From assembly GCA_965112635.1 (NCBI GenBank), contig OZ218778.1, positions 243,666-307,665 of the forward strand: a stretch of 64,000 nucleotides of DNA, in the 5' to 3' direction. Both the position numbers and the translations under genes were made by a program. Positions 8,975 to 59,056 of this stretch are shown in pieces. The stretch comes from an uncultured bacterium (GTDB lineage: Bacteria > Oederibacteriota > Oederibacteriia > Oederibacteriales > Oederibacteriaceae). The notes beneath the pieces are model-generated. The model was not told the DNA's origin. It saw nothing but the letters and a program-made list of their open reading frames with translations, and made no database searches. Numbering within the stretch: the stretch's first letter is position 1; each line of letters begins with the position of its first letter.

Positions 8975-9150
8975 TTATCGTAAAGTGCTTTCAACAACCT
9001 TATTATTATCATTATTTCACGAATCATTAGTCCGGGCAACCGCTTCAAGTATTATCTGATGAGACTTTTTCGGCGGACTAATGAGGTTGACTTTCCCCTC
9101 TGGGCTTGTTAGCTTTTTTTTGCACTGGGCAACAGCCCAGCCCGGAGCGC

Positions 9151-9178
9151 CATGCTCATGCATGCGTGCTTTAGCACG
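9151..9178. promoter_or_regulatory. composite palindromic motif copy C (CATGCTCATGCATG + CGTGCTTTAGCACG), ~240 bp upstream of hypC
   Basis: read directly; related to copies at 1940-1969 and 2051-2091. Confidence 0.4.
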
Positions 9179-9212
9179 AGCCAAAGGATCATTCTTGGCA
9201 AGCGAAGGTGCA

Positions 9213-9252
9213 GTTCGTATGCTATTCTATAAAAAATTAATAGCATACGAAC
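9213..9252. promoter_or_regulatory. candidate NikR operator: perfect 14-bp inverted repeat with 12-bp spacer, containing GTATGC-N19-GCATAC
   Basis: read directly; 50-90 bp upstream of the OMP gene that heads the nikR/nickel-uptake block; overlaps a possible -35 TTGGCA / -10 TATGCT. Confidence 0.45.
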
Positions 9253-9304
9253 CAGCATCAATTATTCAATTTTTTGTAAAGAACTTTAAATTAGGAGGAA
9301 ATAA

Positions 9305-10229
9305 ATGTTCCCCTCCAAAGTCTATCTATTCATTTTCACACTGCTCCTATTATCCTTGACCAATCAGGGCCTGTGCCATGTGATACCCACTACTCCTAAT
9401 GATGACTGGAATCCAGTTTCCACCGGCCCCATCAACACCTGGACCGCTTCCCTGGAACCCGCCGGGGAACTTAACACTCAGCTCTTTGTTTTTTACACCA
9501 TGACCACGGGATTTTATGACGGGGCGGGAAAGTTCTGGTCATTGCCGGATAACACCACCAAGACCCAGTTCCAGGAGCAGCTGTTCCTCCAATATGCTAT
9601 CAACCCTATGTTTGAAATGGATGCCCAACTTTCCACTTTTCAAAATACGCTCAAGGTCGGCGACCAGACTTCCTATTATAGTGGCCCGGGTGACTCGATC
9701 TTCTTTTTGCGTTATGCCATCGCCACCGAAACTCATCCTTACCCCTTCCTGACCGGCGTACTCCAGCTCAGGGTTCCCTCGGGCAATTTTCTTAACCAAA
9801 CCTCCACCCTAAGGACTTCTGATCTCACCGGCACGGGAAGCGTGGGCAGTGGGTATGGGGTTGATGGCCACCAAAAAACTCAAACCATTCTTGCTGCATA
9901 CCGACCTCATCTACAATGTACCCTTACAGACCCAGACCAATATCACTTCTATTAACTACGGCGACTCCGTGAATTATGACCTGGGTGCCGAATACTTTAT
10001 GTCCTACGGATTTAACCTGTCCATGGAGATGAATTATATCTACGAGGCCACTGGCAGTATTTATGGCTTATTCACTCCCGGCGTTTCGGGTAACTACCTC
10101 ATGCTGACCCCGGGACTAGGCTGGGCCGTAAAAAATACCCAGTTACTACTCGGCTATCAATGGGGACTCTATGGCGTCAACACCGATGCCCTAAGTTCCT
10201 ATGTCTTTACCGCCTCGGCTCCGTTCTAA
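9305..10229 (+). pseudogene. putative outer-membrane beta-barrel protein, reading frame broken at an A6 run near 9874-9879
   Basis: signal peptide MFPSKVYLFIFTLLLLSLTNQG, C-terminal aromatic residue; two overlapping ORFs (9305-9955, 9849-10229) rejoin if A6 is read as A5. Confidence 0.5.
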
Positions 10230-10267
10230 AAAAACACTCGTCGGACAAAACTTAAGGAGGCAAAATT

Positions 10268-10684
10268 ATGGCAGGTTTAGTAAGATTTGGCGTATCCCTG
10301 GAAAAAGAACTTCTCAAAAAATTTGATCGACTTATCACCCAAAAACACTACACCAACCGCTCCGAAGCCCTGCGCGACCTCATCCGGGAAGAATTGGTCA
10401 AAGAACAATGGAACCAGGGAGACGAAGTGGCCGGCGCCATTACCCTGATCTACAACCACCACCATAGAGACCTGACCGATAAATTGACTAACATTCAACA
10501 TGATTATGGAGACTGCATCCTGTCTTCCCAGCACATCCACCTAGACCACCACCACTGCCTGGAGATCATCGCGGTCAAAGGGTCCCCCAGCCAGGCGCAA
10601 AAACTGGCCGACACCCTCCACGCGGTTAAAGGAGTCATGCATTCCAGCCTCAGCATGTCCACCACCGGCAAAGAAATACATTAA
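10268..10684 (+). CDS. nikR: nickel-responsive transcriptional regulator NikR
   Basis: 138-aa ORF: ribbon-helix-helix N-terminus (RFGVSLEKELLKKFD) plus His/Cys-rich C-terminal domain (HHHRD, HLDHHHC). Confidence 0.9.
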   Translation: MAGLVRFGVSLEKELLKKFDRLITQKHYTNRSEALRDLIREELVKEQWNQGDEVAGAITLIYNHHHRDLTDKLTNIQHDYGDCILSSQHIHLDHHHCLEIIAVKGSPSQAQKLADTLHAVKGVMHSSLSMSTTGKEIH

Positions 10685-10816
10685 ACCGTATTTTCACTCG
10701 TAACTCCCAGTCCATATCTCCTCAAAAATAATGACCCTCAAACTCTTGACAGACCTACTCCTATGTGTTACTTTTCCAAAATTCGTGTTACTAATTATAC
10801 AAGAGGAGGATTTAAG

Positions 10817-13009: not shown

Positions 13010-13037
13010 CTAAATAATTAAGGAGGAAATTAACTAG

Positions 13038-13661
13038 ATGCAGACTATTTTGCAAAACTTGGCTCTGATCGGGGACGTCTGGGTCATCTACCTTTTGATC
13101 GCCGCAAGCCTGCTTTCTTTGGCGGTCATGGTGGAAAGATGGATGGTCTTCTCGCGTAACAGGGGAGATGTCACGGTTCTAATGGACGGATTAGGCGAAC
13201 GCCTGGAAAAAAAGGATATCAAGGGGGCTCTGGAATTTACCCGTGGTTTTCCCAATGTGGAGGGCAGGGTTGCCGTGGCGGGACTGGAGCATTTTTCCAA
13301 AGGCGCGGCTTCCGTGGAAGAGGCCATGTCCGCCAGGATCATCCGAGAGCGGAAGCATTTGGGGAAAAAACTGATCATCCTCAGCACGCTGGGCAATAAC
13401 GCGCCCTTTATCGGGTTGTTCGGGACCGTGCTCGGTATCATCAAAGCGTTCAACGACCTTGCGGTCAGCGGAAGCTCGGGGGTGTCCGTGGTCATGGCCG
13501 GCATTTCCTCGGCTCTGATCGCCACGGCATTCGGCATCGCGGTGGCTGTCCCCGCCGTCATAGCCAATAATTATTTCCGCAACCGGCTCAACGAGGTCAG
13601 ATCCAACGCCGAAGAGGTGTCCAAAATGCTTTTGCTTTACATCAAAGCGCAGGGAAAGTAG
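13038..13661 (+). CDS. exbB: MotA/TolQ/ExbB proton channel protein
   Basis: 207-aa membrane protein with ExbB/TolQ-like TM helices; AGGAGG RBS. Confidence 0.85.
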   Translation: MQTILQNLALIGDVWVIYLLIAASLLSLAVMVERWMVFSRNRGDVTVLMDGLGERLEKKDIKGALEFTRGFPNVEGRVAVAGLEHFSKGAASVEEAMSARIIRERKHLGKKLIILSTLGNNAPFIGLFGTVLGIIKAFNDLAVSGSSGVSVVMAGISSALIATAFGIAVAVPAVIANNYFRNRLNEVRSNAEEVSKMLLLYIKAQGK

Positions 13662-13670
13662 GAGGAAGCC

Positions 13671-14069
13671 GTGCAAAACTCTGAAGACGAACAGGAAATA
13701 GTCGGCGGCATCAATATCACGCCCATGGTGGATATCACCCTGGTACTGTTGATCATTTTCATGGTCACGGCGACCTTTATGGCGCAATCAGGCCTGAAAG
13801 TGAACCTTCCCAAGGCGGTCACTACCGAAGCGGCTTTCACCGCCAGCCTGACCGTAACCCTGGATTCCAAGGGTTATCTCTATCTGATGAAGTCACCCAT
13901 AGATGAGAAAGGTCTCAGGGCTGCCCTGCAGCACGAAGTCAGGCTCAATCCCGGCGTGAAAGTTACCATTGCCGCAGACAAGAAACAATATTATGAGCAG
14001 GTCATCCATATCCTGGACCTGGTCAAGCAGGCGGGTATCAGTAAAGTGGCGCTAGCCGCGGAAAGGTAG
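13671..14069 (+). CDS. exbD: ExbD/TolR biopolymer transport protein
   Basis: 132-aa ORF, single TM then periplasmic domain; GTG start with GGAGGA RBS. Confidence 0.85.
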   Translation: MQNSEDEQEIVGGINITPMVDITLVLLIIFMVTATFMAQSGLKVNLPKAVTTEAAFTASLTVTLDSKGYLYLMKSPIDEKGLRAALQHEVRLNPGVKVTIAADKKQYYEQVIHILDLVKQAGISKVALAAER

Positions 14070-14075
14070 GGCGGG

Positions 14076-14684
14076 TTGTTTTCTGTTTCCGGTGTGAATG
14101 GTGGGTGGCAGGACCCTGGAAGAAAAGATTTTTATCTGGGCGCCGTGGTGTCATTGGCCGTGCATCTGGCGCTGCTTGCCATTTTTTACTGTTTATTTTC
14201 CTACCTGAAGAACAGCGCGCCTGTGTCCATGGACCTGGACCTTTCCGTGGCCCCTGCTGTGGTTCCCTTGAGCCGTCCCGTGAAAAAAGAACATGTGGTT
14301 CCGCCCCAAGCCTGGGTGGCGCCTAAAGCTGGGATAGCTCCGACACCCCAAAATGTAAGTGAAACCGCCCAGCCGGTGGAAGAACAATATGTGCCCTCAG
14401 CCGTTACAGCGCTCAAGCCCCGCTGGTTAGACGGGTTTATTACCGATGAGGACTACCCGCCGCAGGCGCGGAGCAAAGGGGAAAAGGGAACGGTCAAGGC
14501 GGAAGTTTTTATTGATGCCTCAGGTATGGTCAAGGATCTGAAAATAGTCCAGGAAAGTTATCCTGCCTTGAATGAGGTGGTTTTGCACAAATTAAAGGAT
14601 GCCAAGTTTACGCCAGCCCGTGATGCCTCGGGAAAACCTGTGCCCTGCAAGATGTTGCTGCCCATTAAATTTGAATTGTATTAA
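14076..14684 (+). CDS. tonB: energy transducer TonB
   Basis: N-terminal TM, Pro-rich linker, TonB-like C-terminal domain; TTG/GTG start, exact start uncertain. Confidence 0.7.
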   Translation: MFSVSGVNGGWQDPGRKDFYLGAVVSLAVHLALLAIFYCLFSYLKNSAPVSMDLDLSVAPAVVPLSRPVKKEHVVPPQAWVAPKAGIAPTPQNVSETAQPVEEQYVPSAVTALKPRWLDGFITDEDYPPQARSKGEKGTVKAEVFIDASGMVKDLKIVQESYPALNEVVLHKLKDAKFTPARDASGKPVPCKMLLPIKFELY

Positions 14685-14766
14685 GATAGTTCTTGATTAT
14701 GTTCAGGAAAAAGCTATTACCAAAACAGTGAAGCCATCCTGCTGACTTTATGAAAGGATAAATTTT

Positions 14767-15786
14767 ATGCACATTCCTGACGGATATTTAGGACCGACCA
14801 CCTGCGGATTTTTTTATGTGGTCATGGTGCCGATCTGGATGACCGCTTCCCGCATGGTCAAAAAGACCCTCAAGGCCGGTCAGATCCCTTTTCTGGCCAT
14901 TGGCGCGGCTTTTAGCTTTGTCATTATGATGTTCAATGTCCCCATCCCCGCTGGCTCTACCGGCCACGCGGTAGGCGGCGCCTTGATCGCCATCCTGCTC
15001 GGACCCTGGGGCGCCTGTCTGACCGTTTCCGTAGCCTTGGTCATCCAGGCCTTTTTGTTCGGAGATGGCGGCCTGACCGCCATCGGCGCCAACTGCTTTA
15101 ATATGGCCGTCGTACTGCCCTTTTCTGCGTACCTTATTTACCGGCTCTTGTCCGGCTCCGCCCAAAAAAGTCCGACCAGAAATGTCTGGGCCGCGGGTAT
15201 CGCCGGCTACCTTTCCATCAATATCGCCGCTCTGTGCGCCGGTGTGGAGTTCGGCTTACAGCCTTTGCTCTACCATACCGCGGATGGACAGGCTCTTTAC
15301 TGCCCGTTCGGCTTGAGCGTTGCAGTGCCGGCCATGCTGGGCGGACACTTGCTGGTTTTTGGGTGGATAGAAGGCTTGGTCACCGCTCTGCTGGTCAAAT
15401 ATCTCCAACAGCACTCTCCTGAAATGCTCGCTCGCCCCGCCCTAAAAACTTCCACCAAATTATGGGCCTGTCTTGGCATCCTTGCGGTGCTGACCCCGTT
15501 AGGACTGCTCATCCCCGCCTGGCTCCACGGAGGAGACGCCTGGGGTGAGTGGGCGCCTGAAGAAATACAAAAAATCGCCGGCTATGTTCCCCAGGGCCTG
15601 CAAAAACTTTCCGCGCTCTGGAATGCCCCTTTGGCTGACTATGGTTTTAAAAGCTGGGAAGGAAAAGGATTGGGATACTCAAGCCTAGCCTATATAATAT
15701 CAGCCGTTCTAGGCGCAGCCCTGATCGCTTTTTGCGTCTGGTTATTGTTCAAATATCTCTTCCGGAAAGGCTTTTCCAAAAAATGA
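14767..15786 (+). CDS. nikMN: ECF-type Ni/Co transporter substrate-capture protein, fused NikMN (CbiMN-like)
   Basis: starts MHIPDGYL (CbiM/NikM hallmark); 339 aa with extra C-terminal TM region consistent with an N-component fusion. Confidence 0.85.
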   Translation: MHIPDGYLGPTTCGFFYVVMVPIWMTASRMVKKTLKAGQIPFLAIGAAFSFVIMMFNVPIPAGSTGHAVGGALIAILLGPWGACLTVSVALVIQAFLFGDGGLTAIGANCFNMAVVLPFSAYLIYRLLSGSAQKSPTRNVWAAGIAGYLSINIAALCAGVEFGLQPLLYHTADGQALYCPFGLSVAVPAMLGGHLLVFGWIEGLVTALLVKYLQQHSPEMLARPALKTSTKLWACLGILAVLTPLGLLIPAWLHGGDAWGEWAPEEIQKIAGYVPQGLQKLSALWNAPLADYGFKSWEGKGLGYSSLAYIISAVLGAALIAFCVWLLFKYLFRKGFSKK

Positions 15787-16589
15787 ATTTTGTGGAACGC
15801 ACTATCCTGGCTGCTCTTTCCCTGCTGAAAAATTCCATGTTCGCCGAGGATATCGCCCGCCAAAAAGGGCTCTTACAAACACTGGACCCACGGGTCAAGG
15901 CTGTTTCTTTGCTGGCCTTGATCGTGCTGGTCCTGTTCACCAAAAACTTATGGGTACTGGCTTGTATTTATGGTCTATGTCTGGTCCTGGCTATGCTATC
16001 GAGGATCCGCCTGCTGTTTTTCCTGGAGCGCACCTGGATCTTTATCCCCCTGTTTTCCCTGCTCATCGCCATACCTGCTCTTTTTAGTTTTGTATCACCG
16101 GGCCGGCCTTTGTTCTCCTGGGGGATATGGACCATCACCAGCCAGGGATTAGGCAGCGCCGTCATCTTTATCAGCCGCGTCATCACCTCGGTGTCCCTAG
16201 CCGTGCTTTTGAACCTGACCACCCGTCACCTGGAACTGCTCAAGGTCCTTAGGATATTCGGGATCCCGCAAATGTTCGTCATGATCCTGTCCATGAGCTA
16301 CCGTTATATTTTTCTTTTTGTGGAGATCATGGAAAACACCCACCGGGCCGTGCAGAGCCGCGTCGGCTCGGCCATTCATTATAAAAAAGGTCAGCACCTG
16401 GTGGCCTGGAGCATGGCTGGCCTGTGGAGCCGTTCAGTCGGCCTGCAGGAACAGGTGCACCACGCCATGCTCTCCCGCGGATTTCAAGGCGAGCCGGTCC
16501 TCCTGCACCGCATGAGCACAAGGTTCAGGGACTGGGCCTGGCTGGCCTGCGTTCTCGTCCTGGTAGTCTGTTTGTGGGGAGCGTCCTGA
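15783..16589 (+). CDS. nikQ: ECF transporter transmembrane (T) component NikQ/CbiQ
   Basis: polytopic membrane protein; ATG overlaps nikMN stop (ATGA). Confidence 0.8.
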   Translation: MNFVERTILAALSLLKNSMFAEDIARQKGLLQTLDPRVKAVSLLALIVLVLFTKNLWVLACIYGLCLVLAMLSRIRLLFFLERTWIFIPLFSLLIAIPALFSFVSPGRPLFSWGIWTITSQGLGSAVIFISRVITSVSLAVLLNLTTRHLELLKVLRIFGIPQMFVMILSMSYRYIFLFVEIMENTHRAVQSRVGSAIHYKKGQHLVAWSMAGLWSRSVGLQEQVHHAMLSRGFQGEPVLLHRMSTRFRDWAWLACVLVLVVCLWGAS

Positions 16590-17401
16590 TGAAACCTATC
16601 TTTGAGTTTCAAAAAGTCAGCTATGCTTACCTGGGTAAATTCCCGGCCCTGCGGGACATCACTCTAACTATCCCGGCTGGAAAAATGGTCACCCTGGTCG
16701 GCGCCAACGGTTCGGGCAAATCCACGCTCCTGCAGATGATGGACGGTCTTTTGTTCCCGGACAGCGGGACCATAGTTTTTGATGGCAGACAGCTGGCCAG
16801 CGCTGAACTGGAAAAACAGGACTTTTCCAAGACCTTTAGACAAAAGGTAGGACTGGTCTTCCAGAACCCCGACATCCAGCTTTTTTGTCCTACGGTCCGC
16901 GAGGATATTATTTTTGGTCCGCTCCAGCTGGGGATAGACGAAAAAATAGTGATGAACCGATTGGAAGAGTTGGCCGTAGCCCTTAAACTCACGCCTCTCC
17001 TGGACCGTGCCCCGCATCAGTTGAGCATCGGCGAAAAACGCAAGGTGGCCATAGCCTCCACCCTGGCCATAGACCCTGAGGTTTTGCTTTTGGATGAACC
17101 CACAGCCGGCCTGGACCCCATGACCACGGCTTCCATCCTGGAGATCCTGCTCACAGCCAATCAGTCAGGCAAGACCATTATTACAGCCACCCACGACCTG
17201 CATATTTTAGAGGAGATCGCGGACACAGTGTTCGTTTTCGGGCAGGATAAGACCATCGTCGCGGAAAGCACCCCCGAATCCATACTCAAGGATACGGACC
17301 TCCTGCAAGCGAACAACCTGGTGCATTTTCATCCGCACAGCCATAAAGGCAGGATGCACCAGCATCCCCACCAGCACCCGGACCACCACGAAGGAAGCTA
17401 A
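16589..17401 (+). CDS. nikO: ECF transporter ATPase NikO/CbiO with His-rich C-terminal tail
   Basis: Walker A GANGSGKST, signature LSIGEKRK, Walker B LLLDEPTAGLD; tail HFHPHSHKGRMHQHPHQHPDHHEGS; start overlaps nikQ stop. Confidence 0.85.
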   Translation: MKPIFEFQKVSYAYLGKFPALRDITLTIPAGKMVTLVGANGSGKSTLLQMMDGLLFPDSGTIVFDGRQLASAELEKQDFSKTFRQKVGLVFQNPDIQLFCPTVREDIIFGPLQLGIDEKIVMNRLEELAVALKLTPLLDRAPHQLSIGEKRKVAIASTLAIDPEVLLLDEPTAGLDPMTTASILEILLTANQSGKTIITATHDLHILEEIADTVFVFGQDKTIVAESTPESILKDTDLLQANNLVHFHPHSHKGRMHQHPHQHPDHHEGS

Positions 17402-48369: not shown

Positions 48370-49950
48370 TGGGGAACGGGGAAGGGGGATTGTTAAACAG
48401 CTGGTTGCTCAGGCATACAGGGCTTTGTGGACCGCGGCGAGCATGGTTTCGGACTCGTAGGGCTTGCCCAGGAACCGGTAACCCAGCTTGTCCAATTCGG
48501 GCAGTTCTATCCTGTCGTCCAGATAGCCGCTGCAGACCAGCACCTTGATGCCGGGGTTCTGCCTGCTGACCTCCTCCGCGAGCTGTCTGCCGTCCATGCC
48601 TGGCAGGATCATATCCGTAAAAAGCAGGTTGAATTTTTTCTTTTCTTCTTTAAAAGAGATGAGGGCCTCCTCTGCGTTCTGTGCGGGAAACACAATATAA
48701 CCATGCTTCTGGAGGATGACCGTGCTCAGGGCCAGGTTTTCCGGCTGGTCTTCCACCAGCAATATCCTTTCTCCGGTCCCCCGGCCGTACTCCAGCGCTA
48801 TTTTTTTTGACTCCCTGGGTTCCTCGCTCTTTCTGGTGTCCATAGGGAGCCACACCTTGAACTCCGTGCCCTGACCCGGCTGGCTGGACACATTGATCCA
48901 CCCGTTATGCTGTTTCACGATGCCATAGGTGACCGACAGCCCCAGTCCCGTGCCCTTGCCACGGGTCTTGGTGGTAAAAAAGGGCTCAAATATTTTTGCC
49001 ATGGTTATCGGCTCCATACCCTTCCCGTTGTCTTTGACCGTCAGGCACACGAACTCGCCAACCCGGGCTTCGGATATTTCCAGGGCCTGGCTCTCGCTTA
49101 GAGTGCAGTTGCAGGTCTGGATGAGCAATTGGCCGCCCTGGGTTATGGCATCCCGGGCATTGACGCAAAGGTTCATCAGGACCTGTTCCATCTGGGTCTG
49201 GTCGGCGTAGATGGCCTGGAGGCCCTTATCCAGCTCCAGTTTCAAAGTAACCTTTTCACCCACTGCCTCTTTGAGCATCTTTTCCATATCCTGGACCACT
49301 AGATTCAAGGAAAGGGACTTGGGGGACAGGTTTTGTTTGCGGCTGAACGCCAGCAGCTGACCGGTCAGGGCAGCGGCTTTTTTACCCGCGCCCTTTACTT
49401 CCTCCAGATAGGATTGGACAGCATCCCGGTCATCTTTTTTGATGAGGGCCAGGTCAGAGTAACCGATAATGACATTAAGCAGGTTGTTGAAATCATGGGC
49501 AATGCCTCCGGCCATCTCCCCGATAGAGGCCAATTTTTGGGCCTGCATCAGGCCCTGTTTCAGGAGTTTAAATTCCGTCACATTGGAGGCTATGGTGGAG
49601 AAACCGATGGCCTGGCCATTTTGTCCTTGAAGCGGGGTTATGGTCAAAGCCACCTGGATGGTCTCCCCGTTCTTGCGCAGGTGCTCGGTCTCAAAATGGG
49701 CAATTTTATGGCCTGCGTTGAGTTGCTCTGTAAGCATCCGCATCTCTTCTTTGCGTTCCGCGGGAACCAGTTGTTCCGCAGACATTCCAATGGCTTCCGC
49801 TGGGGAATAACCATAAATCTTTTCCGCACCCCTGTTCCAGCTCGTGATGAGGTTCGCCAAATCCCTGCTGAATATCGCGTTATCCGAGGATTCCACGATC
49901 GTCGCCAGCAGGCGGTCTTTTTCTTCCGCTTTCCGGCTCTCGGTGATGTC
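48370..49950. repeat. paralogous segment (3' part of hybrid kinase plus ~40 bp of 3' flank) duplicated at ~53130-54710; bounds approximate
   Basis: long near-identical protein stretches ([61 protein letters not shown]) and shared downstream GGGAAGGGGGATTGTTAAACAGCTGG. Confidence 0.6.
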
Positions 49951-51081
49951 CCTGGAAACGGCGAGTAAACCTATGATCTTTTTGTGTTCCGCCCCTTCCC
50001 AGATGGGGGTTTTGACTTCCCAGAACACCCGGCCATTCTCCGAGACGACCTCCTCGGTGGTCTGTTCGCCCTGTAAAACCCGGGCCTCAATGGCCTTGAT
50101 CTGCTCGGCCGCGCCAGTGGGCATCAGTTCGGAGTCCTGACGGCCTATCAATCCCTCCAGGGAACAGCGGAACAGCTCCAGGGTCGCCTTGTTGCCGTAA
50201 ACATACCGGGACTGGGCGTCCTTGAAATAGACATAAACGGGTATCTGGTCCATGATCTCCCGGAAACGCTGGGCTTCGTCCAGAGCCCTGAGCAGTTTCA
50301 ACTCCTCCTGCTTGCGTTCGGTGATGTCCTCGGATATGCCCAGCAAATATTTCGTGACCCCATCCTCCCCCCGAATGCAAACCTTGCGGGTATGAAGAAT
50401 CCGTTGGCCTTTCTTGGCTGTCAGGATAAATTCTTCCGGGATATCCAGCATCCCCGCTTCGCCATCCAGCACCTCACGGTCTTTGCTCATGAAATTGGCC
50501 GCCTGTTCAGGAGGGAAAAGGTCCAGGTTATTCCTGCCCAGCAGGTCTTTGCGGTCATATCCCAGGAGTTCCTCGCCCGCGCGGTTGAATATGACGAAAC
50601 GCAGGTCTTTGGACTCTTTGAGGAATATCATGAGCGGAATATTTTCTACGACGGATGCGAAAAGGCTTTTCGATTCCCTCAACTCCCTCTCCGACCGCTT
50701 GCGCTCTATGGCATATCTCAATGAACGGATCAGCAGGGAACCGTCAAATTTCCCTTTAACCAGATAATCTTCCGCGCCCGTATGAAGGGAATCCACAACT
50801 AGTGCTTCATCATCCAGCCCGGTGATCACCACCACCGCGGTCCCGGGGGCATTGCCCAGGATGCTTTTCAGCGTAGTGATCCCCTGACTGTCCGGCAAAT
50901 TAAGGTCTAGTATGAGGCCGTCAAACGAACTCTTGCGTAACTGATCGACCGCGTTATCCAGCGTGCCTACAGTTGATATTTCATACCGGCCGACACCGGC
51001 TTTTTTGACCATTTCCTGGATGAGCCGAGCATCGCCCGGATTGTCCTCGACCAATAATAGTTTTATCTTTGGCTCCTCCAT
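48409..51081 (-). CDS. hybrid sensor histidine kinase (REC, 3x PAS, HisKA, HATPase, REC)
   Basis: 890-aa ORF; N-terminal receiver [11 protein letters not shown]-box [11 protein letters not shown]-terminal receiver [10 protein letters not shown]. Confidence 0.85.
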   Translation of the reverse strand: MEEPKIKLLLVEDNPGDARLIQEMVKKAGVGRYEISTVGTLDNAVDQLRKSSFDGLILDLNLPDSQGITTLKSILGNAPGTAVVVITGLDDEALVVDSLHTGAEDYLVKGKFDGSLLIRSLRYAIERKRSERELRESKSLFASVVENIPLMIFLKESKDLRFVIFNRAGEELLGYDRKDLLGRNNLDLFPPEQAANFMSKDREVLDGEAGMLDIPEEFILTAKKGQRILHTRKVCIRGEDGVTKYLLGISEDITERKQEELKLLRALDEAQRFREIMDQIPVYVYFKDAQSRYVYGNKATLELFRCSLEGLIGRQDSELMPTGAAEQIKAIEARVLQGEQTTEEVVSENGRVFWEVKTPIWEGAEHKKIIGLLAVSRDITESRKAEEKDRLLATIVESSDNAIFSRDLANLITSWNRGAEKIYGYSPAEAIGMSAEQLVPAERKEEMRMLTEQLNAGHKIAHFETEHLRKNGETIQVALTITPLQGQNGQAIGFSTIASNVTEFKLLKQGLMQAQKLASIGEMAGGIAHDFNNLLNVIIGYSDLALIKKDDRDAVQSYLEEVKGAGKKAAALTGQLLAFSRKQNLSPKSLSLNLVVQDMEKMLKEAVGEKVTLKLELDKGLQAIYADQTQMEQVLMNLCVNARDAITQGGQLLIQTCNCTLSESQALEISEARVGEFVCLTVKDNGKGMEPITMAKIFEPFFTTKTRGKGTGLGLSVTYGIVKQHNGWINVSSQPGQGTEFKVWLPMDTRKSEEPRESKKIALEYGRGTGERILLVEDQPENLALSTVILQKHGYIVFPAQNAEEALISFKEEKKKFNLLFTDMILPGMDGRQLAEEVSRQNPGIKVLVCSGYLDDRIELPELDKLGYRFLGKPYESETMLAAVHKALYA

Positions 51082-51559: not shown

Positions 51560-52655
51560 TTAATCTTTTAAAGTGAAATAAAAAACTGTGCCCTTTCCAT
51601 ATTCGGACTCATACCATATCTTCCCCCCATTACGCTCCACGATACGCTTGCAAACAGCCAGGCCCACCCCGTTACCGGGGTACTTGACCCCTGCCAACCG
51701 CTGAAATAGGGAAAAAACCCTATCCTTATACTGGGGTTCTATTCCGATACCATTGTCCTTGATGGAAAAAACAACCTCTTTTCCCTTTTTCCCCGCAGAA
51801 AGATGAACACACGGTGCCTGTTCTCCGCAAAACTTGATGGAGTTGGCAATGAGATTCTGCAAAACCTGAAGAAGCTGGGAGGGGTCGGCCATGACCGCTG
51901 GCAAAGGATCTGTGGGTAATGACCGCTTTATTCTCTAATATGGCCAATTTCAGATTGGCCAGAGCGCCTTTAAGGACCTCCTCGGTATCCACCAGCTCCA
52001 GGGGTTTAGCCTGGGACTCTACCCGTGAGAATAATAACAGACCGTCAATGAGTCCCTGCATGCGGGTAGCTCCGTCTACGGCGAAATTGATGAATTCATC
52101 AGCATCCTGGTCCAGTTTGCCTTTATAGCGTTGCTCTATCAATTGAAGATAACTTACGACCATCCGGAGCGGCTCCTGCAGGTCGTGGGAGGCGATATTG
52201 GCGAACTGCTGGAGGTCTTCATTGCTGCTTTTTAGTTTTAAGGCATATTTCCTAATCTCCTCTTCCTCTTTGTGCCTGGTGATGTCCTCGATGGCCAGAA
52301 GAATGATATGCTCTTTTCCTAATGCTCTCTGAATTTGCCTTGCATTCAAAAGTAAGATGCGCCGGCCAATGGTGTCAAAATCGTGCTCCACCTCAAAATT
52401 GTCAAAGGAGGTCTTTTGAGGAAGGATGTTTTCCAGCAGTTCCCTTAGCTGGGGAATATTCCACTGTTTGTTACCCAGGTCATAGATTAACTGCCCCACC
52501 GTCTCTGCCGGGTTTACCTTAAAAAATTCATAGAAGGAACGGCTGGCGGAGATGACCCTGAGGTCCTGGTCCAGAACGACCAAGGGTTCGCGAATGGTAT
52601 TGATAATGCTTTCGGCGTATTCCTGGGATTCTACTGCTGTTTTTTCGCTAAACAT
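51560..52655 (-). pseudogene. PAS sensor histidine kinase, frame broken near 51905-51925 between HisKA and HATPase
   Basis: ORF 51726-52655 carries PAS and H-box (SHDLQEPLR); ORF 51560-51904 carries N-box/HATPase (QVLQNLIANSIKF, DNGIGI) in another frame. Confidence 0.65.
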
Positions 52656-52712: not shown

Positions 52713-52895
52713 TTACCTATGGAGTGAAAATACTACTGAGCTTGTTTTTGCAGGAGTTCGGATTGTAGGATGGTGATGTCTGTGGGTGGTGCGGCTCGAG
52801 GTGAAATTATTCTTGCAGGTATGGTTGAGTCCCTCAAAAATACTTCCCTTGAGGCTGGGACATTTCATATCACAGGTACAGTTATCTTTGGTCAT
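52713..52895 (-). pseudogene. internally deleted remnant of an FNR-like regulator gene (paralog of 56524-57219)
   Basis: N-terminal 27 codons (MTKDNCTCDMKCPSLKGSIFEGLNHTC) match the intact paralog; last ~12 codons in another frame (ILQSELLQKQAQ, stop at 52734) match its C-terminus. Confidence 0.55.
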
Positions 52896-52901
52896 TTTCT
52901 A

Positions 52902-52915
52902 CCCCCCCCCCCCCC
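52902..52915. repeat. C14 homopolymer (G14 on the minus strand) followed by A7, 6 nt upstream of the remnant ATG
   Basis: read directly. Confidence 0.9.
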
Positions 52916-53129
52916 GAAAAAAAGGGTGGAGGTTTCTACAATTAAGTTTAATCCTCTTCCTCTGCATTAGGAAGATATAAAAAAATTATCTTTTGCAAAT
53001 GGATATTGGGCCATTAACCGTCTTAAGAAAGCTGAGCAATATCAAGGGGTTTGCAACAATAGCGCCCCAAACAAGGGTTTTATTGGGTAACATGGATCAT
53101 AATTCAAAAATCCTCCTCTACCTCCCCCT

Positions 53130-54710
53130 TTTCTGTAAAGGGGGAAGGGGGATTGTTAAACAGCTGGCTGCTCAGGAATACAGGGCTTTTTGGACCGCCG
53201 CCAGCATGGTTTCGGATTCGTAAGGTTTGGCTAGGAACTGGAAACCTTGGTTGGTGAGTTCGTTTTGCTCCACGATCTTATCCAGATAACCGCTGGTCAC
53301 CAGCACCCGGATGTTAGGATTCTCTTTTCGGATTTCCTTGATAAGTGCATTCCCATCCATGCCGGGCAGAATGATGTCGGTAAAAAGCAATTTAAACCCT
53401 TTTTTCTCTTCCTTGAACGCCCTGAGGGCGTCTTCTGCATTCTCAGCGGGAAAAACAGTATAACCTTGTTCTTCGAGTATCTTGGTGGCCAGGGCCAGAT
53501 TGTCCGGCTGGTCCTCCACCAAAAGTATTTTTTCACCAGCGCCCCGGCCGTGCTCCAGGGCTATTTTCTTTTGTAGCTTGGGCTCCTGGTCTTTGCGTTC
53601 ATCCCTGGGGAACCATATCCTGAACTCTGTGCCTTTCCCAGGCTGACTGGACACATTGATCCACCCGTTATGCTGTTTCACGATGCCATAGGTGACGGAC
53701 AGGCCCAGGCCCGTGCCCTTGCCCCTGCTCTTGGTGGTAAAAAAGGGGTCAAATATTTTGGTCAGGGTCATGAAATTCATTCCTATACCGTTGTCCTTGA
53801 CTGTCAGGACTATAAAATCCCCGGGACGGGCTTCACGGATAACCTGCGCTTCTAACTGGCCAAGGGACACTGCCTGGGTCTTGATAAGCAGTTGGCCTCC
53901 CTGAGGCATGGCGTCGCGGGCGTTGACGCACAGGTTCATCAGGACCTGCCCTAACTGGTTCTGGTCCGCATATATTCTTTCTTGTCCTTTACTCAAGGCC
54001 AGCGTAAGCACGACGTGTTCACCCACCGCCTCTTTGAGTATTTTTTCCATACCCAGGACCACTTCATTCAGGGATAAGGACTGGAGGGACTGGTTCTGTT
54101 TGCGGCTGAAGGCCAGCAATTGTCCGGTCAGGGAGGCGGCTTTTATGCCCGCGCCTTTTATCTCCTCCAGGTAGTTCCTGGCGGCAGTCCAGTCATTGGC
54201 TTTCATCAGGGCCAAGTCAGAATAGCCGATGATGACGTTGAGCAGGTTGTTGAAATCATGGGCAATGCCTCCGGCCAATTCCCCGACAGAGGCCATTTTC
54301 TGGGTCTGGACCAAATCGCTCTGCAGGCGCCGGAATTCGGTGATATCGGTGGCGATGGTGGACCCGCCGACGACCTGGCCGTTCTTGTCGTAGATAGGCG
54401 AAAGGGCCAGCATCACCTGGACCCGGGTCCCATTTTTATGCAGGCGCTCTGTCTCAAAGCGCAGTATGGGTTGGCCAAGGTTAAGTTTTTTGGTGATCTC
54501 CAGCATCTCTTCCCTGCGTTCCGGAGGGACCAATTTTTCCGCGGACATGCCGATAGCCTCCTGGACGGAATACCCATATATCTTTTCCGCGCCCTTGTTC
54601 CAGCTCAAAATTATTTGATGATGGTCCCTGCTGAATATCGCGTCACCTGAGGATTCCGCGATGGTGGCCAGCAAGCGGTTTTTTTGTTCGGCTTCCCGGC
54701 GCTGGGTAAT
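53130..54710. repeat. second copy of the paralogous hybrid-kinase segment (see 48370-49950); bounds approximate
   Basis: same shared protein stretches and 3' flank. Confidence 0.6.
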
Positions 54711-56507
54711 ATCTTGGACATAGTTCACAAAATAAAGGATAACTCCCGTGGAGGGCTTGCGCACTGCAGCCACAGACACATTGGCCCAAATAATCCGGCC
54801 GTCCTTGCGTAAATACCGCTTTTCTAGGATGGCATTGTCAGCCTCACCCTCCGTCATGCTCCTCATGGCTTTTAACCCTATTTCATAATCTTCCGGATGA
54901 GTGATGCTGTTAAAGGTTTTGCCTAAAAGCTCATTCTCACCAAACCCCAGCATTTCGTTCATGGCCCGGTTGACCCTGAGATACCGGCCTTCAATATCCA
55001 CTAGGCTGACCCCGACCACGGCGTTTTCAAAAGAGGTCCTGAAAAGCTCCTCGCTCTCGGCCAAGGCCTTTTCAGCTTGCCGGCGTTCAGTCACATCGCT
55101 CATAAAATTGAGCGTAGCCAGCCGGCCCTGCCATTCGATCCTGACGGCGTTTATCTGCACCCAGCGCAGCTGGCCCGAAGCGGTCAGGATGCGGAACTCA
55201 TATATTTTTTCCAGGTCCTCCCCAGCCAGCCGTCTCAGGTGGTTTGCCGCGACCATGGCCCGGTCTTCCGGATAGATGAAATCAGTGAAAGGATGGCGGG
55301 ATATCTCTTCGGGTGGATATCCCAATTCCCGGACTGTGGCCTTGTTCACGAAAACCAGTTTGTTGTCCTGGGCCACCATGATCATTTCCTGGGAATTTTC
55401 CACGACCTGGCGGTATCTTTTCTCGCTCTCCCGCAGTGCTTCTGAAGCTTTCCTGAACTCGGTAATATCCCTTGCCGAGCTGAGCGTCCCGGTGATGCGC
55501 CCCTCCTCATCATGGACAAGGGAGTTATGAAAAGCCAATAAACGCCTGTCTCCTTGTTTGGTGACCACAAAATTCTCAAAATATTCAACTGGCTTGATAG
55601 CGCCGGAGATGATCTGGTCAAAAACAGAATGGACAGCCTGATACTCCTCGGGAGTAACGCAGGTCTTGAACCAGTCCTTGCCCAGGAGCTCTCCCTCCTG
55701 GTAACCGAGGAGTTCGTGACCCTTACGGTTGAGGAGCACGACCTGGCCCTGGGTGTCCAGCACCACCATCAATACCTGGGCAACTTCAAGATATTCGGAG
55801 GCTTTTCTTCTTTCGGCCCTTAAATACGCCACATCCTTCTTGCGCAGGGTCACATCGTTGGCCATGGATATATTTAACTTTCGCCCATCCGCGGTCCGGC
55901 CCAAGGCAGTAGATTGAAATTCCCAAACCCGGGTCTTCCCGCTTTTCGTCTTGACTGTGAACTCTCCCTCATTGTACCGGATGCCATCGTCCAGAGAAAA
56001 AAACAGATTTCTCCGGGACTGGACTTTGTCCTTTTTCAGCCCATAGGCAAGCTCAAGCCAAGCATCTAGTGTAGGTATGTCCGCCCGGCTATATCCGGTC
56101 AGTTCTTCCCAAACCTGGTTGACCCGGATGACCTCGCCATCCTCCGCGTAGATCATGATGGGAAACGGTGACAGCTGTATCACTTTTTCCCGCTGTTCCA
56201 GGCTGAGCCTCTCGGCTTTTTCTATGTGCTGGAGCAAAACGACCACGATAAACATGGAAAGGGATAAGGCAAAACGCCTCCCGGTCTCCAGAGGGTCAAT
56301 CGTGCTGGGAACATGGTTTACGAGCATCTGATACAGGGGGGAAAACGCAGGTAAAAGATCAAAACAAGGGCCAAACCCATGAAGGACCAGGAGACTTTCC
56401 TTTTGGACTTGGGCAGGCCCAGGAGGACCATCACCATGGCTATGAGGGCAATGATGGCCGAGGCCACATTGACCACGGTCAAAAACATGGCTGTCCCTCC
56501 TTTTCAA
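53172..56507 (-). CDS. hybrid multi-PAS sensor histidine kinase with C-terminal receiver; N-terminus uncertain
   Basis: multiple PAS, H-box [10 protein letters not shown], HATPase, receiver [10 protein letters not shown]; a 56-aa 2-TM ORF with strong RBS (56318-56488) lies in a neighbouring frame across a C6 run. Confidence 0.8.
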
Positions 56508-56523: not shown

Positions 56524-57219
56524 TTACTGGGCTTCCTTTTGCAGGAGTTCGGACTGCAGGACTGTGATCCTTTTGCCTACCAGGGAAATGATCTTTTTTT
56601 TCTCCAGTACTTTCAGGGCCCGGATGGCGGTCTCCTGGGCCGTGTCCGCCAGCTCGGCCAGCTCGGTCCGGGAAAGCTGGATGTTGAGCGAACCGTCCTT
56701 GGCCGGAGCATAGTCCCGGGCCAGCTTGCACAGCACCTCGGCCACCCGGTTCTTGACCGGCTTTTGGACCGCGCTTTCCAGCCGGGACAGGGTGTCGCCC
56801 ACCTCGGCTCCCATCCGGCTCATGATGTTCTCTCCCAGCCGGGGATCCAGCCCCAAGGCCGCGAATAAAATGGAGCGTTCAATGAAGCAGACCTGGGTTT
56901 CCTCCAGGGTTTCCGCAGAGGTGAAATTGACCTTGCCCGACATCAGCGCGGACACACCCAGCGCATCACACGGTCCGGCGATCTGGACGATCTGCTCGCG
57001 GTCCAGGCGGCCGGTTTTGTAGAGTTTTACTTTTCCGGAACGGATGTGATAAATGCCGTAGGGTTTATTGCCCTCATAAAAAAGGTTTTGTTTGGGTTTG
57101 TAGGTGTTGGTGGTGCGGCCCTTGGCGATATAATCCAGGCATTCATGGTTAAGCCCCTCGAATATACTTCCCTTGTAGCCGGGACATTTGGCGTCACAGG
57201 TCCAGTTTTGATTGACCAT
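56524..57219 (-). CDS. Crp/Fnr-family regulator with FNR-like cysteine pattern
   Basis: cNMP-binding-like fold plus C-terminal HTH (LSRTELAELADTAQETAIRALK); N-terminal C8-x3-C12-x14-C27 plus internal Cys (GPCDALG); AAGGAAG RBS before ATG 57219. Confidence 0.8.
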   Translation of the reverse strand: MVNQNWTCDAKCPGYKGSIFEGLNHECLDYIAKGRTTNTYKPKQNLFYEGNKPYGIYHIRSGKVKLYKTGRLDREQIVQIAGPCDALGVSALMSGKVNFTSAETLEETQVCFIERSILFAALGLDPRLGENIMSRMGAEVGDTLSRLESAVQKPVKNRVAEVLCKLARDYAPAKDGSLNIQLSRTELAELADTAQETAIRALKVLEKKKIISLVGKRITVLQSELLQKEAQ

Positions 57220-57302: not shown

Positions 57303-57698
57303 CTAATTCGATCCGGGCAGGAGGTCATTGAGGGTCTTGAGAAACTGAGTTATATCCATGGGTTTAGAGATATAGCCGTCAAAGGAGTACGATTGGACCT
57401 CTTCCCGGTAATGGGGATTGCCCATGCCTGTGAAACTGACGACCTTGACGGCTTTGAAAGCCTCATTCTGCCGGATCATTTTGAAAATCTCAAATCCGTC
57501 AATGTCAGGAAGCCCGATATCCAGCAGGACAATATGTGGAACTATGGTGTCCAGGATTTCTATGGCCTCCTCACCTGTCGCGGCCTGATGGACCTGCCAG
57601 CCGTCCATTTTTAGGATCTCCACGGATATCTTCAGATTGGTCGGATGGTCCTCTACGACCAAAATGATCTTGGTTTTTACCTTTTCGCCATTAGCCAA
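57303..57698 (-). CDS. single-domain response regulator (receiver only)
   Basis: 131-aa CheY-like receiver (ILVVEDHPTN, LLDIGLPDIDG, YISKP). Confidence 0.8.
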   Translation of the reverse strand: MANGEKVKTKIILVVEDHPTNLKISVEILKMDGWQVHQAATGEEAIEILDTIVPHIVLLDIGLPDIDGFEIFKMIRQNEAFKAVKVVSFTGMGNPHYREEVQSYSFDGYISKPMDITQFLKTLNDLLPGSN

Positions 57699-58883: not shown

Positions 58884-59056
58884 GGTCGTACACCTCCGCT
58901 TTCCTCTAGTGCAAGTGTACCCCTGGACCAAAAAATCCCTTATGACGCAGGAAGACTGGCCGATTGATATTTGGATACGGAAAAGCTGACGCAGGTCAAT
59001 AGATGAAGGGTGTGTTTTTCAGGATTTTAAGCAATTTTCCGTAAAAAACTTTGGGG

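What the first reader, a model, noticed from the sequence alone, without database searches (positions are those of the whole stretch)
57139..57219. FNR-like cysteine arrangement in the Crp/Fnr regulator, retained in the decayed paralog
The regulator has Cys at positions 8, 12 and 27 (C-x3-C-x14-C) plus an internal Cys, resembling E. coli FNR, which binds a [4Fe-4S] cluster through three N-terminal and one central cysteine. The same N-terminal cysteines are present in the remnant copy. Beside sensor kinases and hydrogenase genes, an Fe-S-based O2 or redox sensor is plausible.
Basis: partly seen in the sequence, partly recalled or inferred. Interest (0 to 1): 0.5.

Follow-up and report, generated by a model that had tools for sequence, protein, structure and literature searches.

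The report
FNR-like cysteine sensor regulator, divergent variant
A Crp/Fnr-type gene regulator carries cysteines at three of the four positions where the oxygen sensor FNR holds its iron-sulfur cluster, so it is probably a redox or oxygen sensor of an unstudied FNR-related subfamily, but its "third N-terminal cysteine" is not the FNR one.

Summary
The 231-aa Crp/Fnr regulator (56524-57219, minus strand) has Cys8, Cys12 and Cys27, plus Cys84, Cys111 and Cys164. An internally deleted paralog remnant (52713-52895) keeps the three N-terminal Cys.

Two alignment methods place C8, C12 and C111 on FNR C20, C23 and C122. These three are Cys in about 85% of 221 relatives. C27 aligns with FNR E38 on helix A, not with C29, and occurs in only three sequences. 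The usual fourth Cys in the subfamily lies on strand beta3 (position 58 or 60). This protein has His58 there.

The protein scores far below the curated FNR cut-off and lacks the cAMP-binding residues. Close relatives have 27 perfect ATGAT-N4-ATCAT boxes, all intergenic, next to molybdenum-cofactor, cytochrome c and NnrS genes. The window's only two TGAC-N4-GTCA palindromes bracket the regulator's own operon, and the closest orthologue's locus has a near-identical box.

The hydrogenase maturation genes are about 48 kb away, not beside it. Cys retention in the remnant is not statistically informative.

Most likely this is a divergent member of an uncharacterised Fe-S-type FNR-like subfamily that controls its own operon and the adjacent sensor kinase. 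No cluster has been shown.

The parts
56524..57219 (-). Crp/Fnr-family regulator CDS, 231 aa (stop codon included)
   Evidence: Pfam cNMP_binding at aa 39-119 and HTH_Crp_2 at aa 158-228. AF2 model has mean pLDDT 91. Foldseek gives TM 0.8-0.9 to GlxR, Mtb CRP and holo-FNR. The same CDS is called in two other assemblies.
57139..57219 (-). N-terminal Cys segment, aa 1-27: C8 (57196-57198), C12 (57184-57186), C27 (57139-57141)
   Evidence: C8 and C12 align with FNR C20 and C23 and are Cys in 85% of 221 relatives. C27 aligns with FNR E38 and is found only in P0001-P0003.
57046..57048 (-). His58 codon on strand beta3, at the position that is Cys in 65% of relatives
   Evidence: Among 175 relatives with the N-terminal Cys pair and C111, 141 have Cys and 9 have His at position 58 or 60. 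The AF2 model has a strand at 55-61.
56887..56889 (-). Cys111 codon on strand beta8, equivalent to FNR C122
   Evidence: MAFFT and hhalign. It is Cys in 87% of relatives. The AF2 model has a strand at 108-114.
56611..56643 (-). DNA-recognition helix TAQETAIRALK (aa 193-203), with Q195, E196 and R200
   Evidence: E196 and R200 are invariant in the family. They align with FNR E209 and R213 and with CRP E181 and R185. Q195 occupies the position of CRP R180 and FNR V208.
58986..58999 (-). Candidate operator site A, TTGACCTGCGTCAG, about 110 nt upstream of the HEAT/TPR gene that heads the HEAT/TPR - receiver - regulator - kinase gene string
   Evidence: It is one of only two TGAC-N4-GTCA matches in 64 kb. 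Its flanks match the box in the orthologue locus L086.
56469..56482 (-). Candidate operator site B, TTGACCGTGGTCAA, a perfect palindrome 42-55 nt after the regulator's stop codon, overlapping codons 3-7 of the sensor kinase
   Evidence: It is the only exact TTGAY-N4-RTCAA match in the window; 0.31 are expected by chance.
53032..53045 (-). Degenerate operator-like site, TTGATATTGCTCAG(CTTT), 137 nt upstream of the remnant's ATG
   Evidence: It shares TTGA...TCAGCTTT with site A.
52713..52895 (-). Remnant of a paralogous regulator: a 60-codon ORF with aa 1-40 homologous (C8, C12, C27 kept), about 536 nt deleted internally, and the last 14 codons at 52736-52777 out of frame
   Evidence: The ENA assembly (L084) shows no difference from the window here.
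57303..57698 (-). Stand-alone response-regulator receiver (131 aa) immediately upstream. The receiver-regulator pairing is also present in the orthologue locus.
   Evidence: Pfam annotation. L086 has the same receiver-regulator order.
53172..56488 (-). PAS-rich hybrid sensor kinase (1105 aa in other assemblies), 35 nt downstream of the regulator. In the window the ORF is broken by a 1-nt deletion at 56335.

Best explanation
The gene encodes a divergent member of an uncharacterised, FNR-related subfamily of Crp/Fnr regulators. This subfamily carries a Cys/His-lined sensory metal site, most likely an O2-, NO- or redox-labile iron-sulfur cluster.

The site is built from the N-terminal pair C8 and C12 (FNR C20 and C23) and from C111 on beta8 (FNR C122). 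The fourth ligand is not the FNR C29 equivalent. It is either His58 on the neighbouring strand beta3, a position that is Cys in most relatives, or the clade-specific C27 on helix A.

By analogy with FNR, the cluster-loaded dimer would bind TTGAC-N4-GTCA(R) boxes. Two such boxes bracket its own operon. The regulator would thereby control its own expression and that of the adjacent receiver and PAS-rich hybrid sensor kinase, feeding a redox signal into a two-component cascade.

Shown here: family membership, the alignment and conservation of the residues, and the existence and placement of the DNA boxes. Inferred: metal or cluster binding, which residue is the fourth ligand, the signal, and the direction of regulation.
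For: - Alignment: C8, C12 and C111 align with FNR C20, C23 and C122 in MAFFT and in hhalign (probability 99.6%, 228 columns).
- Conservation: these positions are Cys in 85%, 85% and 87% of 221 relatives.
- Fourth position: of 175 relatives with that triad, 141 have Cys and 9 have His at beta3 position 58 or 60. Of the 25 with neither, 19 carry an extra N-terminal Cys.
- Cys/His exchange: Cys and His alternate at positions 58/60 and 111 (a subclade has C-x3-C, C60 and H111). This points to metal ligation rather than a disulfide.
- Not cAMP: the residues at the positions of CRP E72 and R82 are V89 and F99, so cAMP is not the ligand.
- Structure: in the AF2 model (pLDDT 91) H58 and C111 sit mid-strand in beta3 (55-61) and beta8 (108-114). 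These strands are neighbours in the jelly roll (inference from the known topology).
- Helix A: in the FNR crystal structure, residues just before and within helix A line the cluster cavity (PMC4672761), so C27 is not excluded as a ligand.
- Regulon of relatives: 27 perfect ATGAT-N4-ATCAT palindromes, all intergenic, against about 0.8 expected. They lie upstream of the regulator itself, moaA, cytochrome c and radical-SAM genes, and in loci that also carry NnrS, which is typical of anaerobic or NO-responsive regulons. Eighteen TTGAY-N4-RTCAA boxes occur against 2.9 expected across the related loci, mostly in Sericytochromatia.
- This locus: the only two TGAC-N4-GTCA sites in 64 kb lie within 2.6 kb around the gene. 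A near-identical box with matching flanks sits beside the 54%-identical orthologue.
Against: - No biochemical evidence exists for any member of the subfamily that I could find.
- This protein is the most eroded version of the motif. It has a one-residue insertion in CxxC, the nearly invariant R15 is Tyr, the Cys21 found in about a third of relatives is Glu, and Cys58 is His.
- C27 does not align with C29.
- I could not obtain model coordinates, so no distances between C8, C12, C27, H58 and C111 were measured.
- Site B lies inside the kinase coding sequence, and a 10-base palindrome there could be coincidental (0.31 exact matches are expected per window).
- The box of this clade (TTGAC) differs from that of the wider subfamily (ATGAT) although both have the same Q-E-T-A-I-R helix.
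- The host organism and its lifestyle are unidentified.
Confidence: 0.55

Rival explanations
1. Thiol-disulfide redox switch. The cysteines form reversible disulfides instead of binding metal, as reported for Lactobacillus casei FLP (an N-terminal Cys plus a central Cys at the FNR C122 position) and CprK (C11-C200). Candidate pairs are C8-C12, an N-terminal Cys with C111, or C27 with C164.
For: - C111 occupies the FNR C122 position, and an N-terminal Cys is available. The FLP and CprK precedents come from my own knowledge. [quoted passage not shown]
- Six triad-bearing relatives have neither Cys nor His at beta3 and no extra N-terminal Cys.
- C27 and C164 are both rare and co-occur in P0001-P0003.
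Against: - Four to five conserved Cys/His positions are more than a disulfide switch needs.
- His replaces Cys at positions 58/60 and 111 in several lineages, including this protein. That fits a metal ligand and cannot form a disulfide.
- The C27/C164 co-occurrence is a single evolutionary event, so it is not evidence of coupling.
Confidence: 0.15
2. Structural or regulatory Zn(II) (or other non-Fe-S metal) site. The Cys/His set holds the N-terminal arm on the beta-roll, and the regulator responds to another input, for example the adjacent receiver protein or kinase.
For: - A Cys3His or Cys4 set is equally typical of Zn sites (general knowledge).
- The gene is embedded in two-component genes, and the receiver-regulator pairing is conserved in the orthologue.
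- Cys-less relatives in Bipolaricaulota sit next to PAS kinases and receivers, so that gene context does not need the Cys motif.
Against: - Three positions are homologous to bona fide [4Fe-4S] ligands of FNR.
- Relatives' boxes sit at genes for molybdenum cofactor, cytochromes c and radical-SAM enzymes, and NnrS genes lie in the same loci. This is the kind of regulon that O2 or NO sensors control.
Confidence: 0.15
3. Decaying sensor. The ancestral cluster site is being lost in this lineage, and the protein now acts as a constitutive or differently controlled DNA binder. The cysteines would be historical leftovers.
For: - Several subfamily hallmarks are lost in this one protein: the CxxC spacing, R15, C21, C58 and G84.
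- Its paralog has already been destroyed.
- Cys-less branches of the family exist.
Against: - C8, C12 and C111 are all retained.
- The 54%-identical orthologue P0002 keeps C8, C12, C27 and C111 with the same C-x3-C spacing.
- C58 is replaced by His, another ligand residue, and the same replacement is seen in P0086.
Confidence: 0.1

Closest known systems
FNR of E. coli and Aliivibrio fischeri (N-terminal [4Fe-4S] O2 sensor; PDB 5E44)
   Same: - Same two-domain Crp/Fnr fold (TM 0.83 to 5E44).
- Equivalents of ligands C20, C23 and C122 are present.
- E and R of the recognition helix are conserved (FNR E209 and R213).
- The DNA boxes are palindromes with a TGA-N6-TCA core, like TTGAT-N4-ATCAA.
- No cAMP-binding residues.
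   Different: - Only 25-26% identity, and 59.6 bits against a 228-bit family cut-off.
- No C29 equivalent.
- C-x3-C instead of C-x2-C.
- His or Cys on beta3 as the likely fourth ligand, or C27 on helix A.
- Ile instead of Ser212, and Gln instead of Val208.
- Thr143 at the position of Asp154, the residue that tunes the FNR monomer-dimer switch (my reading of the alignments).
- Box TTGAC-N4-GTCA here, and ATGAT-N4-ATCAT in relatives.
Bacillus subtilis / B. cereus Fnr (C-terminal [4Fe-4S], three Cys plus Asp)
   Same: A Crp/Fnr regulator whose cluster is held by three Cys plus a non-Cys residue. This is a precedent for a 3Cys + His/Asp ligand set (PMC12937710, PMC3520743; the Asp ligand is from my own knowledge).
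   Different: The cluster sits at the C-terminus of the DNA-binding domain. This protein has no C-terminal Cys cluster.
FLP (Lactobacillus casei) and CprK (Desulfitobacterium): thiol-disulfide controlled Crp/Fnr regulators
   Same: An N-terminal Cys plus a Cys at the FNR C122 position (FLP), or an N-terminal Cys paired with a Cys in the DNA-binding domain (CprK). Here the candidate pair is C27 and C164.
   Different: This subfamily has four to five conserved Cys/His positions with Cys-His exchange, which fits metal binding better. No evidence for disulfides was obtained here. The comparison rests on my recollection of the literature.
HcpR2 of Desulfovibrio desulfuricans (Fe-S containing, NO-responsive Crp/Fnr regulator)
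   Same: A non-FNR Crp/Fnr regulator from an anaerobe proposed to use an Fe-S cluster that is damaged by NO (PMC5701242). Some relatives of the window protein sit in loci with NnrS genes.
   Different: No hcp gene is in the window. I could not obtain the HcpR2 sequence to compare Cys positions. The HcpR boxes reported for delta-proteobacteria (TTGAC-N4-GTCAA; PMC1274295) resemble the boxes here, but those HcpR proteins were described as lacking the FNR Cys motif.

Membership tests
Crp/Fnr superfamily | N-terminal cNMP-binding-type beta-roll, long dimerisation helix and C-terminal HTH_Crp domain | tested here: met
   Pfam PF00027 (53 bits) and PF13545 (52 bits), both above their cut-offs. AF2 plus Foldseek gives TM 0.8-0.9 to many Crp/Fnr structures.
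FNR sensu stricto (NCBIfam NF008365) | Whole-protein HMM score above the curated cut-off | tested here: not met
   59.6 bits against a cut-off of 228, and the HMM match covers only aa 41-229.
FNR sensu stricto (NCBIfam NF008365) | Four cluster ligands C20, C23, C29 and C122 (C-x2-C-x5-C plus a central Cys) | tested here: not met
   C8, C12 and C111 align with C20, C23 and C122. The C29 position is Ser18, and C27 aligns with E38. The first pair is spaced C-x3-C.
FNR sensu stricto (NCBIfam NF008365) | E--SR recognition helix and TTGAT-N4-ATCAA box | tested here: inconclusive
   E196 and R200 are present, but Ser is replaced by Ile199 and Val208 by Gln195. Local boxes are TTGAC-N4-GTCA(A/G). Close relatives use ATGAT-N4-ATCAT, and Sericytochromatia relatives use TTGAT-N4-ATCAA.
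FNR sensu stricto (NCBIfam NF008365) | O2-labile [4Fe-4S] cluster controlling dimerisation | not testable with these tools
   This needs anaerobic purification and spectroscopy.
CRP-type cAMP receptors | cAMP-contacting residues of the phosphate-binding cassette (CRP E72, R82, S83) | tested here: not met
   The aligned residues are V89, F99 and T100. NCBIfam CRP scores 49.8 bits against a cut-off of 266.
Uncharacterised 'CxxC - beta3 Cys - beta8 Cys' FNR-like subfamily (defined here from 221 relatives) | N-terminal CxxC, Cys at beta3 position 58 or 60, and Cys at beta8 position 111 | tested here: inconclusive
   The N-terminal pair is present with one inserted residue, and C111 is present. The beta3 position is His58, as in P0086 and P0207.
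Uncharacterised 'CxxC - beta3 Cys - beta8 Cys' FNR-like subfamily (defined here from 221 relatives) | Q-E-T-A-I-R recognition helix | tested here: met
   The protein has TAQETAIRALK. E196 and R200 are invariant, and T197 and I199 are at least 90% conserved.
Uncharacterised 'CxxC - beta3 Cys - beta8 Cys' FNR-like subfamily (defined here from 221 relatives) | ATGAT-N4-ATCAT operator near the gene | tested here: not met
   No intergenic match with up to one mismatch occurs in the window. This clade (window and L086) has TTGAC-N4-GTCA(R) instead.
FLP / CprK-type thiol switches | Redox-active disulfide between an N-terminal Cys and a central or DNA-binding-domain Cys | not testable with these tools
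   Candidate residues exist (C8, C12 or C27 with C111 or C164), but no coordinates or chemistry are available.

The most novel reading that the evidence does not exclude
The window protein represents a widespread but unstudied branch of Crp/Fnr regulators, found in uncultured 'Deltaproteobacteria'-labelled MAGs, Sericytochromatia, Elusimicrobia, Nitrospirae and Bacteroidia. In this branch the sensory cluster is clamped between an N-terminal CxxC and two residues of the beta-roll itself (beta3 position 58/60 and beta8 position 111, each Cys or His), not by FNR's three-Cys N-terminal loop. The branch also has its own operator (ATGAT-N4-ATCAT, with Gln195 reading the outer adenine). In the window's clade the ligand set has been remodelled to Cys3His or to include C27, the box has changed to TTGAC-N4-GTCA, and the output is a sensor-kinase cascade rather than respiratory genes.
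Probability: 0.3. Interest if true: 0.55.

Novelty: new variant of a known kind. Interest (0 to 1): 0.4.

Why it matters
FNR is the textbook model for how an Fe-S cluster converts O2 into a transcriptional decision. Only two ligand architectures are described in the recent structural review I read: N-terminal in Gram-negative bacteria and C-terminal in Bacillus (PMC12937710).

A third architecture would use beta-roll residues, with natural Cys-His-Asp variation at the fourth ligand. It would give a ready-made natural series for studying how ligand identity tunes O2 and NO sensitivity. It would also supply a predicted regulator and operator for anaerobic-respiration genes in several uncultured phyla.

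For this particular gene the practical value is modest. It gives a candidate redox input into a dense two-component signalling island, together with testable operator sites.

Tried and rejected
- Hydrogenase context. The only hydrogenase-related genes are hypE and hypD, beside nikR and Ni/Co transport genes at 6-17 kb, about 48 kb away. I rejected this as support.
- Remnant as evidence of constraint. Keeping three of three Cys at 55% identity has P of about 0.17, and dN/dS is about 0.76. This is uninformative.
- Decay of the neighbouring kinases. The frameshifts at 56335 and 51911 are absent from the ENA and Logan assemblies. They are differences specific to this window's assembly, not decay.
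- cAMP receptor. Rejected, because the cassette residues are missing.
- Fold search against PDB. It returns the generic Crp/Fnr fold and does not discriminate between subfamilies.
- AF2 model. No coordinates are returned, so Cys-Cys distances could not be measured.
- Source organism. It is not among the GTDB species representatives at more than 41% identity, the clusters carry no names, and HypD relatives are spread over Verrucomicrobia, Acidobacteria and NC10. It remains unidentified.
- ATGAT-N4-ATCAT box in the window. Only coding-region near-matches were found.
- Sigma-70 promoter scan around the boxes. Nothing useful emerged.
- Literature searches for a described Crp/Fnr subfamily with this Cys pattern. 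None was found in the held library. This is not proof of absence, and the original HcpR2 biochemistry paper was not available.
- Bipolaricaulota relatives that share the regulator - PAS kinase - receiver arrangement. They lack all the Cys, so that gene context does not depend on the motif.
Full report
**What is at the coordinates**

The minus-strand ORF 56524-57219 encodes a 231-aa protein, MVNQNWTCDAKCPGYKGSIFEGLNHECLDY.... It has Cys at positions 8, 12, 27, 84, 111 and 164. The interval in the finding, 57139-57219, is exactly codons 1-27, so the C-x3-C-x14-C description is correct. Two other public assemblies of the same organism call the same start codon.

The protein has a cNMP-binding-type beta-roll (aa 39-119) and an HTH_Crp_2 domain (aa 158-228), both above Pfam thresholds. 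An AlphaFold2 model built on 78 homologues has mean pLDDT 91. It superposes on GlxR, mycobacterial CRP and holo-FNR with TM 0.8-0.9. It is clearly a Crp/Fnr regulator.

**The remnant**

tblastn of the regulator against the window finds residues 1-40 again at 52895-52776. This copy is 55% identical, keeps C8, C12 and C27, and has an extra C6. The last 14 residues are found at 52777-52736 in another frame. At DNA level the two pieces are 76% and 84% identical to the intact gene and are joined by 3 nt where the intact gene has about 536 nt. This is a clean internal deletion that leaves a 60-codon ORF. The ENA assembly shows no difference from the window across this region.

The remnant adds little to the argument. 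With 22 of 40 residues identical, keeping three of three Cys has P of about 0.17, and dN/dS over the 40 codons is about 0.76.

The apparent decay of the adjacent kinases is a feature of the window's assembly. Both the ENA and the short-read Logan contigs differ from the window by single-base indels, at 56335 (a G run) and at 51911. These restore an 1105-aa kinase that starts at ATG 56488, and an intact 364-aa PAS kinase.

**Do the cysteines match FNR?**

I took E. coli fnr from the MG1655 record. MAFFT with 60-220 relatives and an independent profile alignment with hhalign (probability 99.6%) agree:
- C8 aligns with FNR C20.
- C12 aligns with FNR C23, with one extra residue between the pair in the window protein and its closest orthologue.
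- C111 ('TQVCFIE') aligns with FNR C122 ('SMVCEIP').
- FNR C29 aligns with Ser18.
- C27 aligns with FNR E38, which lies in helix A. That helix spans Asp36-Ile45 in the crystal structure (PMC4672761), and the AF2 model has a helix at 25-34.

The protein is also not an FNR orthologue by score: 59.6 bits against a 228-bit cut-off, with the HMM match starting only at residue 41.

**Family-wide conservation**

A word-indexed search gave 84 relatives. An exhaustive HMMER search gave 10,566 proteins at E <= 0.001, and the best 150 representatives were returned. In 221 aligned relatives, Cys frequencies at the window protein's positions were as follows:

| Position | Residue in window protein | Cys frequency in relatives |
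|---|---|---|
| 8 | Cys | 85% |
| 12 | Cys | 85% |
| 111 | Cys | 87% |
| 58 | His | 65% |
| 21 | Glu | 32% |
| 27 | Cys | 3 sequences only (window protein, P0002 at 54% identity, P0003 at 47%) |

Among the 175 relatives with the N-terminal pair and C111, 141 have Cys and 9 have His at beta3 position 58 or 60. Of the 25 with neither, 19 have an extra N-terminal Cys. P0086 (43% identical) has exactly C, C, H58 and C111 with no other N-terminal Cys. P0085 has Asp at position 58. One subclade has C-x3-C, C60 and His111.

Cys-His exchange at two positions argues for a metal-ligand role rather than disulfide chemistry. H58 and C111 lie mid-strand in beta3 (55-61) and beta8 (108-114) of the model. 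These strands are neighbours in the jelly-roll topology of cNMP-binding domains.

The subfamily's site therefore seems to be an N-terminal CxxC plus beta3 and beta8 residues, often with a further Cys at position 21. The window protein is its most altered version: C-x3-C, R15 replaced by Tyr, C21 by Glu, C58 by His and G84 by Cys, with C27 and C164 added. C-x3-C spacing is compatible with a [4Fe-4S] cluster, as in the radical-SAM motif C-x3-C-x2-C (my own knowledge).

**What the ligand is not**

The residues at CRP E72, R82 and S83 are V89, F99 and T100. cAMP sensing is therefore excluded.

**DNA recognition and regulon**

E196 and R200 are invariant in the family. They match FNR E209 and R213 and CRP E181 and R185. 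Gln195 sits where CRP has R180 and FNR has V208.

I scanned 80 related loci from species-representative genomes. They come from MAGs labelled Deltaproteobacteria, Sericytochromatia, Elusimicrobia, Bipolaricaulota and Nitrospirae.
- A half-site count in the intergenic DNA of the closest loci gave one overwhelming palindrome, ATGAT-N4-ATCAT (22 hits in 49 kb).
- Across all loci there are 27 perfect copies, all intergenic by a crude ORF call, where about 0.8 would be expected for 819 kb. They lie upstream of the regulator itself, moaA, a cytochrome c, radical-SAM genes and others. Pfam assignments are, which also identifies NnrS and multihaem cytochromes in these loci.
- TTGAY-N4-RTCAA occurs 18 times across all the loci against 2.9 expected; 13 of the 18 are in Sericytochromatia loci.

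These are the targets one expects for an O2- or NO-responsive regulator.

The window has no intergenic ATGAT box. However, its only two TGAC-N4-GTCA palindromes in 64 kb (0.59 expected) are both at this operon:
- Site A (58986-58999) lies about 110 nt upstream of the HEAT/TPR gene that heads the HEAT/TPR - receiver - regulator - kinase string.
- Site B (56469-56482) is the only exact TTGAY-N4-RTCAA in the window. It lies 42-55 nt after the regulator's stop and overlaps codons 3-7 of the kinase.

The locus of the closest orthologue, P0002, has the same receiver-regulator order. Between the regulator and the next receiver-kinase pair it carries CTATTGACCTAGGTCAGTTTTT. Site A reads CTATTGACCTGCGTCAGCTTTT, so the flanks match as well. 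A degenerate copy, CCTTGATATTGCTCAGCTTTC, lies 137 nt upstream of the remnant.

I conclude that this clade uses TTGAC-N4-GTCA(R) and is at least autoregulatory. It probably also controls the downstream kinase. The clade differs from the wider subfamily at A194 and K203 of the recognition helix, which may explain the changed box; this is inference.

**Context claims**

The regulator is indeed surrounded by two-component genes. The hydrogenase genes are only the maturation genes hypE and hypD at 6.4-8.7 kb, with nikR and Ni/Co transport genes next to them. That is about 48 kb from the regulator and not a meaningful neighbourhood. Bipolaricaulota relatives that share the regulator - PAS kinase - receiver arrangement have none of the cysteines, so that context does not depend on the motif.

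**Mechanism, rivals and novelty**

The best reading (confidence about 0.55) is an Fe-S-type sensory site held by C8, C12 and C111 plus either H58 or C27. By analogy with FNR (PMC4672761), it would govern dimerisation and DNA binding at the TTGAC boxes.

The rivals are:
- a thiol-disulfide switch of the FLP or CprK kind (about 0.15);
- a Zn or other structural metal site with the signal coming from the adjacent receiver or kinase (about 0.15);
- a sensor in decay (about 0.1).

None of these can be separated without chemistry or model coordinates.

In the literature I could search, Fe-S Crp/Fnr regulators are described with an N-terminal three-Cys loop plus C122 (FNR, FnrP, ANR), with a C-terminal cluster (Bacillus Fnr), or as HcpR2 (PMC12937710, PMC4771820, PMC3520743, PMC5701242). 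I found no description of the CxxC / beta3 / beta8 pattern or of the ATGAT box. That library is incomplete, so this is not proof of novelty.

I therefore rate the finding as a new variant of a known kind. It is a real and probably functional motif, but the FNR analogy holds for three ligands only, and the specific C-x3-C-x14-C reading is likely wrong about the third N-terminal ligand.

Noticed in passing
L005-L029, L041, L058, L076, L082 (for example L017 5854-5867, L021 5936-5949, L016 7464-7477): There are 27 perfect ATGAT-N4-ATCAT palindromes, all intergenic, upstream of the regulator's relatives and of moaA, cytochrome c, radical-SAM and other genes. This is a predicted operator for an uncharacterised Crp/Fnr subfamily.
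   Followed up: partly
window 52902-52915: A 14-nt C run on the + strand (G run on the coding strand) lies immediately upstream of the remnant's ATG. It is the only homopolymer of 9 nt (C/G) or 10 nt (A/T) or longer in the window. The short-read Logan contigs end on either side of this region.
   Followed up: no
window 56335 and 51911: Single-base indels relative to two other assemblies of the same organism split two sensor-kinase ORFs in the window only: the 1105-aa hybrid kinase that starts at 56488, and a 364-aa PAS kinase at 51560-52655. These are probably consensus errors.
   Followed up: yes
window 48409-51081 and 53172-56488: The two hybrid PAS kinases are paralogues, about 75% identical at DNA level over roughly 1.4 kb of their 3' halves. 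Each follows a copy of the regulator (intact or remnant), which indicates a duplicated regulator-kinase module.
   Followed up: partly
window 61-528 (-) and 539-1690 (-): A stand-alone cNMP-binding-domain protein (155 aa, 28% identical to the regulator's beta-roll) sits next to a 4Fe-4S dicluster protein. Similar stand-alone cNMP-domain proteins of about 120 aa flank the regulator's relatives in 19 related loci.
   Followed up: no
window 56728-56730 (C164) and 57139-57141 (C27): C27 and C164 are both rare in the family and co-occur in P0001-P0003. C164 is also present in P0086. They could form a CprK-like pair between the N-terminus and the DNA-binding domain. This was not tested.
   Followed up: no
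window 6430-17401: This stretch holds hypE, hypD and nikR, a TonB-dependent receptor with ExbB, ExbD and TonB, and a CbiM/Q/O-type Ni/Co transporter. Together they form a nickel-supply and hydrogenase-maturation island.
   Followed up: no
L063-L069, L072, L077, L080, L083: Bipolaricaulota relatives of the regulator are followed by a PAS histidine kinase and a receiver, as in the window, but lack all the conserved Cys.
   Followed up: partly
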